Origin: Caldivirga maquilingensis IC-167
GTDB taxonomy: Archaea > Thermoproteota > Thermoprotei > Thermoproteales > Thermocladiaceae
Length of the DNA stretch: 32,000 bases
Assembly (NCBI RefSeq): GCF_000018305.1
Contig: NC_009954.1
Coordinates: 390,001-422,000 of the forward strand
Reading direction: 5' to 3'
The position numbers were made by a program, and so were the translations under genes. The notes beneath the pieces are model-generated. The model was not told where the DNA came from. It saw only the letters and a program-made list of their open reading frames with translations, and did no database searches. Positions 2,735 to 23,182 of this stretch are shown here, piece by piece; the stretch's first letter is position 1, and each line of letters starts with the position of its first letter.

Positions 2735-2747
2735 GAAAAGCTTATAA
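2735..2747 (+). promoter_or_regulatory. Putative BRE/TATA promoter of the tRNA-Ala 5' half gene
   Basis: GAAAAGCTTATAA ends 26-29 nt upstream of G1 (2773). The 10-mer GAAAAGCTTA is identical to the one upstream of the 3' half gene. Confidence 0.45.
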
Positions 2748-2772: not shown

Positions 2773-2821
2773 GGGCCGGTAGTCTAGCCTGGAAGGATGC
2801 CCAGGAGCCTAGCCCTCAGGA
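2773..2821 (+). tRNA. Split tRNA-Ala(UGC), 5' half gene: exon nt 1-29 (2773-2802) plus 3' trailer (2803-2821)
   Basis: GGGCCGG-TA-GTCT-AGCCTGGAA-GGAT-G-CCC gives the acceptor 5' strand, the D-arm (G18G19 present), nt 26 and anticodon-stem nt 27-29. The following 18 nt, GGAGCCTAGCCCTCAGGA, are perfectly complementary to the leader of the 3' half on the opposite strand. Confidence 0.85.
2804..2821. repeat. 18-bp exact direct repeat, copy 1 (GGAGCCTAGCCCTCAGGA); trailer of the tRNA-Ala 5' half
   Basis: Identical + strand sequence at 4243-4260. Flanks differ on both sides, so the repeat is exactly 18 bp. Confidence 0.95.
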
Positions 2822-3338
2822 AAAGCCTGATCAGATGATGGCAACTCATAACTTTTAATCAATTCTTGAAGTTAAGTGTTTAAGATAATATTCTTAATAT
2901 GATACCGCAAGGATACTTGCCAAGCTATTATGTTAATGACACTGACTCGCCAACATTTAAATTAACAGCATACGCAATTATAGTATCCTCCATTGGGTTA
3001 TAGATTCCTGCTTTTTAAGGTGAGTGATGAGTTTTTGAGGAGATGTATACCCTGTGAGAAATTTAGCCTATTCCTTAATGAGAGGAGTGGAATGGAGCTG
3101 TTGTAAACTAGCCTAGAAACAAGCAAACCTAGCGAGAAAGGTGGCTTACAAGTAATGATAAACATATGTAGTTGCTGGGACTTGGGGAAATATTCATTAC
3201 TAATACCACTAATTGTATAAGCATTCTACTCATTTTCACTACCCATTTATTAGTTTCATCGCATTTAATTCTAAATTAACTTATGGTCTCGGTAAATGTA
3301 TCACACTAGTATTAATGCATTTAAGCCTAGTACTAGGC

Positions 3339-4073
3339 TTACTGCCTTAACGCTTTCTCATATACCATATACCTACCATAGTACTCATGGAAGCTGCCAT
3401 CCTCGGTAGACATGGTCTCAAGCCTATTAGGTACCGTGGGTGGACCCACTGAGAACTCACCAAGTCCAATACCCTCACCAAGATACACTTCACTGATAAT
3501 TGACATTACGTAATCCTCATTGGCCCTGGTGCATAACCAATGCCCCCTAGTGGTGCAGTAATACCCATTACTCCTTTTCAACGCCTCCCTAATTAACCCC
3601 CTTGCCTCCTCCCCACGTAACACATTAACCTTACTAGGGTTAGCAACACCAGTGTGCAGTGTGAGTACTTCCTGGAATCCCAGGGACTTAGCTAATCTAC
3701 GGCTTGCCTCATTCCACTCAGCAATCATTAACATGACGTATCCTGCACCTAGCCTAATAGCCTCATTAATTACGTGTTCCGTCAATGCCCTACCAATTCC
3801 CCTCCTTCTGTAATCTGGGTGAACTCTAATGCCCTCAAGCCAAGCAATGCCCGTTTGTAGGGGCACCATATTAACCATACCCACAACCTTATCATCAGTA
3901 ACAGCCACGTAAACTGAACCATCCTTAATCCACTCGTGAATAACACTAGGTATGTAATCACCCCATTGGTAAGTATTCTTAGTGAAGCTGATTATTTGAT
4001 CAACATCACTTGAGACAGCTCTCCTAATAATCATTACACGGCGCCACTGATTCAGTGAATTTAAATCTAACAC
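3339..4073 (-). CDS. GNAT family N-acetyltransferase with a ~90-aa C-terminal extension
   Basis: 244-aa ORF. Motif A is R-R-R-G-I-G-R-A-L (IRVHPDYRRRGIGRALTEHV). The likely true start is the internal Met of MIIRRAVSSD (about 4034). It lies between the two tRNA-Ala half genes. Confidence 0.75.
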   Translation of the reverse strand: MLDLNSLNQWRRVMIIRRAVSSDVDQIISFTKNTYQWGDYIPSVIHEWIKDGSVYVAVTDDKVVGMVNMVPLQTGIAWLEGIRVHPDYRRRGIGRALTEHVINEAIRLGAGYVMLMIAEWNEASRRLAKSLGFQEVLTLHTGVANPSKVNVLRGEEARGLIREALKRSNGYYCTTRGHWLCTRANEDYVMSIISEVYLGEGIGLGEFSVGPPTVPNRLETMSTEDGSFHEYYGRYMVYEKALRQ

Positions 4074-4189
4074 ACTTCATGAATTATTCTCACATGGGCA
4101 TTAAATATTCGTGAACATGCTGTGGATTGATTAATAGTGCATGATGTTCCACAATCCTTTAAACAGTATATTGAGGAATTAGTGAAGAA

Positions 4190-4260
4190 TGGTGGACCGG
4201 CCGGGACTTGAACCCGGGATCTCCCGCGTGCAAGGCTTATGCGGAGCCTAGCCCTCAGGA
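4190..4260 (-). tRNA. Split tRNA-Ala(UGC), 3' half gene: leader (4260-4237) plus exon nt 30-76 with encoded CCA (4236-4190)
   Basis: The minus strand reads TCCTGAGGGCTAGGCTCC-GCAT-AA|GC-CTTGCAC-GCGGG-AGATC-CCGGG-TTCAAGT-CCCGG-CCGGTCC-A-CCA. This gives anticodon loop CUUGCAC (UGC), a canonical T-arm, and an acceptor 3' strand that pairs 7/7 with 2773-2779, including G3:U70, plus A73. Confidence 0.85.
4243..4260. repeat. 18-bp exact direct repeat, copy 2 (GGAGCCTAGCCCTCAGGA); template of the tRNA-Ala 3' half leader
   Basis: Identical to 2804-2821 on the + strand. Transcribed from the - strand it is the exact complement of the 5' half trailer. Confidence 0.95.
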
Positions 4261-4280
4261 TCATTAAGTTTCTGCCTGTT

Positions 4281-4296
4281 TATTTTTAAGCTTTTC
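4281..4296 (-). promoter_or_regulatory. Putative BRE/TATA promoter of the tRNA-Ala 3' half gene
   Basis: The minus strand reads GAAAAGCTTAAAAATA. The shared 10-mer ends 27 nt upstream of the first leader nucleotide (4260). Confidence 0.45.
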
Positions 4297-4332: not shown

Positions 4333-5358
4333 TTAACTATACTTCTCAATTAATTGCTCAAGGCTCAATACCTCATACCTAATCCTCCTACCTGACCCAG
4401 CGCTCTCCCTAAGACCCTCAATAATGTCATGGACTAGTAATGCATCGTAGATTGACTGCTCAGGTTTACGGCCTTCGGCTAAAACATCATCTATAAAATG
4501 CCTTACAATACCCTTAAAGGACTCCACGTAATCCACTGTCTTACCCATCATGAATGAGCCTGCTTGAAGTGATGCAACCACATCATCAAAGGAGTTAATA
4601 GTCACAGTACCCTTAGTCCCAATAACCTTGTCAAGCCACATGAATGGGTATGATGATAAATCATCCGCAGCCCAATTAGCCACAATATTGCCTAAAGCCC
4701 CATTCCTATACCTGAAGGTTGCCACAAAGACCTCATCACTCTTAACCTCCCTATAAGTTAACGTACCCCACATTGCCTGGAACTCAATGGGTGGTCCAAG
4801 GAGGTAGTTTGAGGTGTATATTGAGTGGTATGATTGAGTGAATAATGCGCCATGATGTCTCCTAGCCACTTCCTCACTTAACCTTTGGGTAACAATGAAT
4901 AATGCGTAGGTTGGTTCACCAATAGCCCCACTCTCAATGAGTTCCTTAGCCCTCCTAACCTTAGGCCTAAAGACGTAATTATGCACAGGCATTAATACTT
5001 TATTAGTCTCAAGGCTTACCTTAGCCATGTCCGCAACCTCCCTGGCACTTAAGGCTAGGGGCTTCTCAACAAGCACATGCTTACCAGCCCTCATAGCCTC
5101 CACTGCCTGATCATGATGATGCTCATCGGCACTACATATTATTAAAGCATCAATACCAGGATCATTAATCAACTCCTTGAAGGAGTAGTATGGCCTAGTT
5201 CCCCAAGCCTTAGCCACCTCCTCAACCCTATTCCTACTATGACTAAACACACCGGCTAATTCACCATACCTAGTGCTCCTGAGAGCATTATAGTGGTTTA
5301 GAGAGACTTCACCAAGTCCAACAATAGCAACCCTAATTCTCCTAACTGAGCTACACAT
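4333..5358 (-). CDS. Gfo/Idh/MocA family NAD(P)-dependent oxidoreductase
   Basis: 341 aa. N-terminal Rossmann motif IRVAIVGLGEVS, and the family motif AGKHVLVEKPLA (consensus E-K-P). Confidence 0.85.
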   Translation of the reverse strand: MCSSVRRIRVAIVGLGEVSLNHYNALRSTRYGELAGVFSHSRNRVEEVAKAWGTRPYYSFKELINDPGIDALIICSADEHHHDQAVEAMRAGKHVLVEKPLALSAREVADMAKVSLETNKVLMPVHNYVFRPKVRRAKELIESGAIGEPTYALFIVTQRLSEEVARRHHGALFTQSYHSIYTSNYLLGPPIEFQAMWGTLTYREVKSDEVFVATFRYRNGALGNIVANWAADDLSSYPFMWLDKVIGTKGTVTINSFDDVVASLQAGSFMMGKTVDYVESFKGIVRHFIDDVLAEGRKPEQSIYDALLVHDIIEGLRESAGSGRRIRYEVLSLEQLIEKYS

Positions 5359-23013: not shown

Positions 23014-23091
23014 TGGCGGGCCCGGTGGGATTTGAACCCACGCCCTACGGGTTAAGAGCCCGCCGCTCTGGCCAGGCTGAGCTACGGGCCC
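23014..23091 (-). tRNA. tRNA-Lys(CUU), intact, with encoded CCA
   Basis: The minus strand reads GGGCCCG-TA-GCTC-AGCCTGGCCA-GAGC-G-GCGGG-CTCTTAA-CCCGT-AGGGC-GTGGG-TTCAAAT-CCCAC-CGGGCCC-G-CCA. All stems pair, the anticodon is CTT, and a TATA-like CCTTATAAAC lies about 25-33 nt upstream. Confidence 0.93.
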
Positions 23092-23182
23092 CTTTCATCT
23101 GCTATTAGCGGTGGGTTTATAAGGTTTTACCTTAAGTCTAATAAACTTAAAGATTAAAAACCCAACTTAAGATTACCTTTCT

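What the first reader, a model, noticed from the sequence alone, without database searches (positions are those of the whole stretch)
2773..4260. Split (trans-spliced) tRNA-Ala(UGC): two half-genes on opposite strands 1.4 kb apart, joined through a textbook bulge-helix-bulge motif at position 29|30
Seen directly in the sequence:
- 5' piece: + strand 2773-2802 is GGGCCGG-TA-GTCT-AGCCTGGAA-GGAT-G-CCC. That is the acceptor 5' strand, the D-arm, nt 26 and nt 27-29; tRNA-like sequence then stops.
- 3' piece: - strand 4236-4190 is GC-CTTGCAC-GCGGG-AGATC-CCGGG-TTCAAGT-CCCGG-CCGGTCC-A-CCA. That is nt 30-31, the anticodon loop with UGC, the rest of the anticodon stem, the variable loop, the T-arm, the acceptor 3' strand, A73 and CCA.
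- Joined product: a complete 77-nt cloverleaf. The acceptor stem pairs 7/7 and includes G3:U70, the alanine identity pair. The anticodon stem CCCGC/GCGGG pairs 5/5.
- Long helix: the 18 nt after the 5' piece (2804-2821) are the perfect complement of the 18 nt before the 3' piece (4260-4243).
- Splice motif: between that helix and the tRNA body lie a 4-bp central helix ATGC(2797-2800):GCAT(4242-4239), two 3-nt bulges on opposite strands, CC|A (2801-2803) and AA|G (4238-4236), and an inner helix AAGG(2793-2796):CCTT(4235-4232). This is the canonical hBHBh' substrate of the archaeal splicing endonuclease. Cleavage between the 2nd and 3rd bulge nucleotide gives exactly C29 and G30.

Established knowledge: split tRNA genes are known from Nanoarchaeum equitans (Randau et al. 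2005), and split and tri-split tRNAs from Caldivirga maquilingensis (Fujishima et al. 2009). The class is therefore described but rare. I cannot tell from here whether this particular locus is already catalogued.
Basis: partly seen in the sequence, partly recalled or inferred. Interest (0 to 1): 0.8.

Follow-up and report, generated by a model that had tools for sequence, protein, structure and literature searches.

The report
Known split alanine tRNA, Caldivirga

Summary
Every sequence statement in the finding checks out. The 30-nt 5' piece (2773-2802, +) and the 47-nt 3' piece (4236-4190, -) join into a 77-nt tRNA-Ala(UGC). This product is 77/77 identical to an uninterrupted gene in Vulcanisaeta sp. 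UBA163. The 18-nt trailer and leader are exact complements, and RNAcofold returns helix / 3-nt bulge / 4 bp / 3-nt bulge / helix. Each half has a tRNA-type promoter motif at the usual distance.

Four window proteins are exactly identical to Caldivirga maquilingensis IC-167 proteins. Reviews held in the library state that this organism makes tRNA-Ala(UGC) and tRNA-Ala(CGC) from halves split at 29/30, with one shared 5' half (Fujishima et al. 2009). The locus is therefore already known.

Added here:
- The split is conserved in four Caldivirga lineages. One compensatory C:G to U:A change occurs in the annealing helix, and an unlinked Ala(CGC) 3' half also carries it.
- Vulcanisaeta has the same gene uninterrupted, or with a short cis intron at 29/30 with the same bulge-helix-bulge flanks.
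- The DNA flanking the halves is rearranged between lineages.
- A conserved K-loop-like hairpin follows the 5' half. It is unexplained.

The parts
2736..2747 (+). Promoter motif AAAAGCTTATAA (BRE/TATA-like) of the 5' half. It ends 25 nt before G1.
   Evidence: The motif AAAASCTTAWAA occurs only 3 times in the 32 kb: before the 5' half, before the 3' half and before tRNA-Lys. The pattern was derived from these three sites after the fact. The same motif precedes the Vulcanisaeta tRNA-Ala genes. It is invariant in 4 Caldivirga lineages.
2773..2802 (+). 5' exon of tRNA-Ala, nt 1-29: acceptor 5' strand, D-arm, nt 26 and nt 27-29.
   Evidence: It is 30/30 identical to the 5' part of contiguous Vulcanisaeta tRNA-Ala genes.
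2801..2803 (+). 5' bulge CC|A of the BHB. The cut falls after C29 (2802).
   Evidence: RNAcofold. The same CCC|A boundary is seen in the Vulcanisaeta cis introns.
2804..2821 (+). 18-nt trailer GGAGCCTAGCCCTCAGGA, which anneals to the leader of the 3' half.
   Evidence: A compensatory change is seen across lineages.
2825..2842 (+). Conserved hairpin GCCUGA-UCAGAU-GAUGGC with a K-loop-like arrangement (CUGA ... UGAUGG). A T-run follows at 2851-2854, the likely terminator. Its role is unknown.
   Evidence: Alignment A1: the stem and GA positions are invariant and the loop varies. It is not part of a complete C/D sRNA.
4284..4295 (-). Promoter motif AAAAGCTTAAAA of the 3' half. It ends 23 nt before the leader helix.
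   Evidence: A conserved TTTAAAAAT box occurs in all the 3'-half loci.
4243..4260 (-). 18-nt leader TCCTGAGGGCTAGGCTCC, complementary to the trailer.
4236..4242 (-). GCAT (4242-4239) is the central 4-bp helix partner of ATGC 2797-2800. The 3' bulge is AA|G (4238-4236), and G30 is 4236.
   Evidence: RNAcofold. GCATAA|G or GCATAG|G is conserved in all split and cis-intron relatives.
4190..4236 (-). 3' exon, nt 30-76: rest of the anticodon stem-loop with UGC, variable loop, T-arm, acceptor 3' strand, A73 and an encoded CCA.
   Evidence: Rfam gives a partial tRNA-like (tmRNA clan) hit at 4190-4254. It is 46-47/47 identical to Vulcanisaeta genes.
3339..4073 (-). GNAT acetyltransferase ORF (244 aa) lying between the convergent halves. 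It is not part of the tRNA system and is absent from this position in Caldivirga sp. lineages A and B.

Best explanation
This is the published split tRNA-Ala(UGC) gene pair of Caldivirga maquilingensis IC-167.

Proposed pathway:
1. Two convergent transcription units, each with its own BRE/TATA promoter, make two RNAs. One is a 5' half: exon nt 1-29 plus an 18-nt trailer. The other is a 3' half: an 18-nt leader plus exon nt 30-76 with CCA.
2. The trailer and leader anneal in trans. Together with ATGC:GCAT and AAGG:CCUU they form a helix-bulge-helix-bulge-helix motif.
3. The crenarchaeal splicing endonuclease cuts between the 2nd and 3rd nucleotide of each 3-nt bulge, after C29 and before G30.
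4. An RNA ligase joins the exons into a 77-nt tRNA-Ala(UGC) carrying the G3:U70 alanine identity pair.

The same 5' half also pairs with a second 3' half, Ala(CGC), encoded elsewhere.

Shown here: the anatomy, the predicted duplex, the promoter motifs, conservation with one compensatory change, and homology of the trailer/leader ends to cis introns at 29/30 in Vulcanisaeta.
Taken from the literature: expression, the joined product, endonuclease processing and the shared 5' half.
Inferred: the ligase, RNase P 5' trimming and the termination point.
For: Anatomy and cofold.

Organism: four window proteins are exactly identical to C. maquilingensis ABW01196, ABW01202, ABW01203 and ABW01204, carried on a 2,077,567-bp contig.

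Literature:
- PMC4090602 gives the split at 29/30.
- PMC3218864 states that the C. maquilingensis endonuclease processes split tRNAs.

Comparative evidence:
- The joined product is 77/77 identical to the contiguous gene in Vulcanisaeta sp. UBA163.
- Cis introns at 29/30 with the same CCC|A...GCATAA|G flanks occur in V. distributa JCM 11217 and JCM 11216 and in an uncultured Thermoproteaceae archaeon, and two of the three fold into a BHB.
- The split arrangement is conserved in four Caldivirga lineages. 98.5% of duplex cells are paired, with one C:G to U:A compensatory pair.
- An Ala(CGC) 3' half at an unlinked metagenomic locus carries the matching leader, including the compensatory base.

Other support:
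- The promoter motif occurs only before the two halves and tRNA-Lys.
- A splicing-endonuclease gene ends 369 nt before the window start in a 100%-identical contig.
Against: - Nothing in the sequence argues against it.
- The primary paper (Fujishima et al. 2009, PNAS) is not held in the library. Its coordinates could not be compared, and the match rests on reviews that cite it.
- The source genome could not be scanned: one search returned no Caldivirga hit. The absence of an intact tRNA-Ala(UGC) and the position of the CGC 3' half in this genome were therefore not checked directly.
- Covariation rests on a single pair in five sequences (50 of 500 shuffles reach the observed score). Gene conversion between the repeats could also produce it.
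- The MFE cofold loses the 4-bp central helix in lineages with U27, where that helix contains a U:G pair.
Confidence: 0.97

Rival explanations
1. The two pieces are inert debris: remnants of a tRNA-Ala gene broken by inversion or by integration of a mobile element, like the att-site tRNA fragments left at integration borders. A working tRNA-Ala(UGC) would then be encoded elsewhere.
For: - tRNA genes are frequent integration and rearrangement sites (PMC3218864).
- The DNA on both sides of the 3' half differs between Caldivirga lineages.
- The trailer and leader form a direct repeat on the + strand, as integration borders do.
Against: - The pieces abut exactly at 29|30 with no overlap or gap.
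- Each has a tRNA-type promoter motif at the normal spacing.
- Exons and the annealing helix are conserved across four lineages with a compensatory change, while the flanks diverge or are replaced.
- The BHB geometry is exact.
- The literature reports these halves as the source of tRNA-Ala(UGC).
Confidence: 0.02
2. The resemblance to tRNA halves and the 18-nt complementarity arose by chance.
For: None beyond the short length of the 5' piece. ARAGORN and Rfam do not detect that piece on its own.
Against: - None of 100 shuffles gave the paired 18-mer.
- The joined product is 77/77 identical to a contiguous Vulcanisaeta gene.
- The arrangement is conserved in related genomes.
Confidence: 0.005

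Closest known systems
Split tRNA-Ala(UGC) / tRNA-Ala(CGC) of Caldivirga maquilingensis IC-167 (Fujishima et al. 2009, PNAS 106:2683; summarised in PMC4390854 and PMC4090602)
   Same: Same organism, same isoacceptor, and the same split position 29/30. This is that locus.
   Different: Nothing known to differ. The paper's coordinates could not be read here.
Cis-spliced tRNA-Ala genes of Vulcanisaeta with a non-canonical intron at 29/30
   Same: Exons are identical or differ by one base. The BHB flanks are the same, CCC|A ... GCATA(A/G)|G. The intron ends are homologous to the Caldivirga trailer and leader ends.
   Different: There is a single transcript with a 22-26-nt intron forming a 6-8-bp hairpin, instead of two transcripts with an 18-bp trans helix. 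Some Vulcanisaeta copies have no intron at all.
Split tRNA-Asp(GUC) of Thermosphaera aggregans and split tRNA-Lys(CUU) of Staphylothermus (Chan, Cozen and Lowe 2011, PMC3218864)
   Same: The halves lie close together in the genome. In T. aggregans they are convergent on opposite strands. In Staphylothermus there is a canonical hBHBh' followed by a perfect 13-nt trans pairing.
   Different: Different tRNAs and split positions (37/38 and 30/31). [quoted passage not shown]
Split tRNAs of Nanoarchaeum equitans (Randau et al. 2005; PMC3491384)
   Same: Separate promoters, GC-rich complementary stretches, and processing by a heterotetrameric endonuclease followed by a ligase. One half is shared by two isoacceptors (Glu).
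   Different: Most splits are at 37/38 with a relaxed BHB. The halves are dispersed over a reduced genome. For Glu it is the 3' half that is shared, not the 5' half.

Membership tests
Archaeal split (trans-spliced) tRNA gene | Two separately encoded pieces that together give one complete cloverleaf, with no overlap and no gap | tested here: met
   The joined 77-mer is called tRNA-Ala(tgc) by ARAGORN. It is 77/77 identical to a contiguous Vulcanisaeta gene. The halves lie on opposite strands, so they cannot be one transcript.
Archaeal split (trans-spliced) tRNA gene | Complementary trailer of the 5' piece and leader of the 3' piece | tested here: met
   18/18 complementary. The pairing is kept in four lineages, with one compensatory and one G:U change.
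Archaeal split (trans-spliced) tRNA gene | Bulge-helix-bulge motif at both exon boundaries, placing the cuts so that the exons join in register | tested here: met
   RNAcofold gives 3-nt bulges CCA and AAG separated by 4 bp and flanked by 18-bp and 4-bp helices. The cuts give C29 and G30.
Archaeal split (trans-spliced) tRNA gene | An independent promoter for each piece | tested here: met
   AAAAGCTTA(T/A)AA lies 23-25 nt upstream of each piece, with the same motif and spacing as tRNA-Lys in the window and the Vulcanisaeta tRNA-Ala genes. This is motif evidence only; transcription was not measured here.
Archaeal split (trans-spliced) tRNA gene | No intact gene for the same isoacceptor in the genome | not testable with these tools
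   The source genome was not retrievable: the genome scan returned no Caldivirga. The window itself has no other tRNA-Ala. The literature lists Ala(UGC) as made from halves.
Archaeal split (trans-spliced) tRNA gene | Both halves and the joined product are detected in the cell | not testable with these tools
   An experiment is needed. Reviews citing Fujishima et al. 2009 state that the tRNAs are generated from the halves.
Archaeal split (trans-spliced) tRNA gene | A splicing endonuclease is present in the genome | tested here: met
   A 192-aa gene with Pfam tRNA_int_endo_N and tRNA_int_endo ends 369 nt before the window start, in a contig 100% identical to the window. Its subunit composition was not examined.

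The most novel reading that the evidence does not exclude
The 5'-half transcript carries a conserved K-loop-like hairpin 4 nt after the annealing helix (2825-2842, GCCUGA-loop-GAUGGC, with CUGA facing UGAUGG). If this hairpin binds L7Ae, maturation or stability of the shared 5' half would be assisted by a ribonucleoprotein module. I found no mention of such a module for split tRNAs in the papers I could read.
Probability: 0.12. Interest if true: 0.5.

Novelty: already known. Interest (0 to 1): 0.15.

Why it matters
Split tRNA genes are rare and figure in the debate over whether tRNAs began as two half-molecules or were split late by introns and mobile DNA. This locus is one of the published type examples, so the finding adds no new kind of system.

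The comparison made here does add some detail. Sister-genus genes are intact or carry a cis intron at the same site. The trans helix co-varies at three loci. The flanking DNA is rearranged between lineages. All of this fits the late, intron-derived origin already proposed. It also shows that the first-stage reader can recognise such a gene from raw sequence.

Tried and rejected
- The primary PNAS 2009 paper could not be opened by DOI or by two PMC ids. I relied on reviews instead.
- An exact-protein look-up of the GNAT ORF failed, probably because of start-codon choice.
- The genome-contig scan with nt 30-53 returned only Vulcanisaeta and one uncultured Thermoproteaceae archaeon, not Caldivirga. 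The source genome is absent or masked there. I could therefore not locate the Ala(CGC) 3' half in IC-167 or confirm the absence of an intact Ala(UGC).
- Locus L003 has a different flank after the CCA, which looked like a route to the CGC locus. The flank encodes a KaiC protein only about 79% identical to non-Caldivirga archaea, and it matches neither the window nor L029. It is a chimeric metagenome contig.
- I tested whether the conserved CUGA/UGAUGG block is part of a full C/D box sRNA. No C box lies upstream and no D box downstream. The other seven CTGA...TGATG matches in the window lie in coding sequence.
- I looked for further tRNA pieces in the window with a T-arm pattern scan and an Rfam E-value scan and found none.
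- ARAGORN mis-calls the Vulcanisaeta intron-containing Ala genes as Ser, Val or Met. I ignored those calls.

Full report
OBSERVATION

- The + strand at 2773-2802 reads GGGCCGGTAGTCTAGCCTGGAAGGATGCCC.
- The - strand at 4236-4190 reads GCCTTGCACGCGGGAGATCCCGGGTTCAAGTCCCGGCCGGTCCACCA.
- ARAGORN finds no tRNA-Ala in the window as it stands, only tRNA-Lys(ctt) at 23014-23091.
- On the in-silico joined 77-mer ARAGORN calls tRNA-Ala(tgc). The acceptor stem pairs 7/7 and contains G3:U70, and the anticodon stem pairs 5/5.
- 2804-2821 is the exact reverse complement of 4260-4243. Because the halves are on opposite strands, this shows up as a direct repeat on the + strand. None of 100 shuffles gave two copies even with 3 mismatches allowed.
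- RNAcofold of the two precursors (-76.2 kcal/mol) returns an 18-bp helix, a CCA bulge, a 4-bp ATGC:GCAT helix, an AAG bulge and a 4-bp AAGG:CCUU helix. This is the canonical hBHBh'. Cutting between the second and third bulge nucleotides gives C29 and G30.
- Rfam sees only the 3' half, as a partial tRNA-like (tmRNA clan) match at 4190-4254.

ORGANISM AND PRIOR KNOWLEDGE

The neighbouring oxidoreductase (4333-5358, -) is 100% identical to a Caldivirga maquilingensis protein on a 2,077,567-bp contig. Four window proteins match C. maquilingensis IC-167 exactly: ABW01196, ABW01202, ABW01203 and ABW01204. The accession spacing fits the gene order in the window.

Three papers in the library bear on this locus.
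[quoted passage not shown] It also states that the two Ala tRNAs share one 5' half.
- Yoshihisa 2014 (PMC4090602) gives the Ala split position as 29/30.
- Chan et al. 2011 (PMC3218864) note that the C. maquilingensis endonuclease processes split tRNAs.

The primary paper (Fujishima et al. 2009) is not held in the library. On this evidence the locus is the published one.

TRANSCRIPTION SIGNALS

AAAAGCTTATAA (2736-2747, +) ends 25 nt before G1 of the 5' half. AAAAGCTTAAAA (4295-4284, -) ends 23 nt before the leader helix. AAAACCTTATAA precedes the intact tRNA-Lys by 25 nt.

The pattern AAAASCTTAWAA occurs at these three places and nowhere else in 32 kb. I derived the pattern from these three sites, so only the absence of other matches is informative. 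The same AAAAGCTTAAAT or AAAAGCTTATA box precedes the Vulcanisaeta tRNA-Ala genes. A box A about 26 nt upstream of the start, with a T-stretch terminator, is the pattern described for nanoarchaeal tRNA-half genes (PMC3491384). T-runs follow both units here.

RELATIVES

A scan of species-representative genomes with nt 30-53 returned 11 loci. All were Vulcanisaeta except one uncultured Thermoproteaceae archaeon. No Caldivirga was returned, so the source genome is not searchable there.
- In seven loci the tRNA-Ala(UGC) or (CGC) gene is uninterrupted. Its first 30 nt are identical to the window's 5' half. In Vulcanisaeta sp. UBA163 the whole gene equals the joined product, 77/77.
- Three loci carry a short cis intron exactly at 29/30 with the same flanks, CCC|A...GCATA(A/G)|G. 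These are V. distributa JCM 11217 (UGC), V. distributa JCM 11216 (CGC) and the uncultured archaeon. In two of the three the minimum-energy fold shows the BHB.

This reproduces the published statement that the intervening sequences of split tRNAs resemble introns at the same position in related species.

SPLIT ORTHOLOGUES

Syntenic loci from other Caldivirga genomes show the same convergent split in four distinct lineages: IC-167, UBA161, and two Caldivirga sp. groups I call A and B.
- The exons differ by 1-2 bases. C27 becomes U, which still pairs with G43 and within the BHB central helix.
- In groups A and B the trailer reads GGAGCCTAGtCCTCAGGA and the leader TCCTGAGGaCTAGGCTCC, a C:G to U:A compensatory change.
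- Group B adds a one-sided change that gives G:U.
- A metagenome scan found one Ala(CGC) 3' half (L029) with its own promoter-like box. Its 17-nt leader carries the same compensatory base. In that lineage three unlinked or separate units therefore co-vary.
- On five duplexes, 98.5% of cells pair against 21-50% for slid registers. There is one compensatory pair. With so few sequences this is supportive rather than statistically strong (50 of 500 shuffles reach the observed score). Gene conversion between the repeats is an alternative cause.

FLANKING DNA

Between the halves there are 223-285 nt in groups A and B. In IC-167 there are 1.37 kb, including a GNAT gene. In UBA161 there are about 4 kb, holding five Ser/Thr/Asn-rich ORFs plus a GNAT; this rests on a MAG contig containing Ns.

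An amidohydrolase gene lies between the 3' half and the oxidoreductase in every lineage except IC-167. The promoter-exon-helix units are islands of conservation.

Contigs of run SRR253096 are 100% identical to the window and stop at 4219 and 4235. If the assembly used 31-mers, which I am assuming, this implies that 4190-4264 is repeated elsewhere in the genome. That would fit a near-identical Ala(CGC) 3' half, but it is an inference.

MECHANISM

Shown here: the two units, their motifs, the predicted duplex and its conservation.
From the literature: transcription of both halves, the joined product and endonuclease cleavage.
Inferred from established archaeal tRNA splicing: cleavage leaves a 2',3'-cyclic phosphate and a 5'-OH, which an RtcB-type ligase joins. 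RNase P removes the short 5' leader. CCA is encoded in the gene.

The BHB needs an alternative fold in which D-arm nucleotides pair with C31-U34. For the CGC partner the inner helix loses one pair.

RIVALS

Decayed fragments or att-site remnants are contradicted by four things: the exact abutment at 29|30, the promoters, the conservation with a compensatory change amid rearranged flanks, and the literature. Chance is excluded.

OTHER OBSERVATIONS

Four nucleotides after the trailer helix lies GCCUGA-UCAGAU-GAUGGC (2825-2842). A CUGA faces a UGAUGG across a 5-6-nt loop with flanking G-C pairs, which is the arrangement of a box D'/C' K-loop. The stem and the GA positions are invariant in four lineages while the loop varies. 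It is not part of a complete C/D sRNA. The excess of CTGA...TGATG matches in the window (8 observed against 1.7 expected) comes from coding sequence. Its function is unknown. I rate an L7Ae-binding role as possible but unproven.

The splicing-endonuclease gene ends 369 nt before the window start. It keeps this position in all the Caldivirga loci examined.

VERDICT

The locus is already known and was experimentally characterised in 2009. Interest is low.

Noticed in passing
window 2825-2842 (+), T-run 2851-2854: A conserved hairpin GCCUGA-UCAGAU-GAUGGC lies just after the 5'-half trailer. CUGA faces UGAUGG as in a box D'/C' K-loop. The stem and GA positions are invariant in four Caldivirga lineages and the loop varies. 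It is not part of a full C/D sRNA.
   Followed up: partly
just outside the window: L004 8733-9311 = window -947..-369: A tRNA splicing endonuclease gene (Pfam tRNA_int_endo_N + tRNA_int_endo, 192 aa) lies about 3.1 kb from the 5' half. The synteny is kept in all the Caldivirga loci examined.
   Followed up: partly
window 2822-4189; L021 9598-9881; L024 9823-14342: The DNA between the convergent halves varies between lineages. It is 223-285 nt in Caldivirga sp. A and B, 1.37 kb with a GNAT gene in IC-167, and about 4 kb with five Ser/Thr/Asn-rich ORFs plus a GNAT in UBA161 (a MAG contig containing Ns). An amidohydrolase gene next to the 3' half is missing only in IC-167.
   Followed up: partly
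window 4190-4264; SRR253096 contigs L004 and L001: Two short-read contigs 100% identical to the window end at 4219 and 4235, inside the 3' half. If the assembly used 31-mers, this implies a second near-identical copy of leader plus 3' exon elsewhere in the genome, presumably the Ala(CGC) 3' half.
   Followed up: partly
L029 5684-5754 (ENA ERZ1669250 NODE_192): A tRNA-Ala(CGC) 3' half of a Caldivirga sp. lineage has its own TTTAAAAAT box. Its 17-nt leader matches that lineage's 5'-half trailer, including the compensatory base. No 5' half is detected (ARAGORN and a fuzzy pattern search) in the 11.9-kb locus.
   Followed up: yes
L014 3153-3253 and L009 118-194; L010 478-580 and L017 2606-2682: Two Vulcanisaeta distributa strains differ in which Ala gene carries the 29/30 intron. 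In JCM 11217 it is UGC, with CGC intronless. In JCM 11216 it is CGC, with UGC intronless. ARAGORN mis-calls these intron-containing genes as Ser, Val or Met.
   Followed up: no
L003 1305-2020 (Logan SRR9435972): In this contig the UGC 3' half is followed by a different flank. That flank encodes a KaiC protein about 79% identical to non-Caldivirga archaea. The contig is most likely a chimeric metagenome assembly joined through the conserved tRNA 3' end.
   Followed up: yes
window 23014-23091 (-), promoter motif 23117-23128: An intact tRNA-Lys(CUU) has the same promoter motif and spacing as the Ala halves. This isoacceptor is split in Nanoarchaeum and Staphylothermus but not here.
   Followed up: no
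window 2867-3338: About 470 nt have no ORF of 60 aa or more and no similarity to the other Caldivirga loci. Their content is unknown.
   Followed up: no
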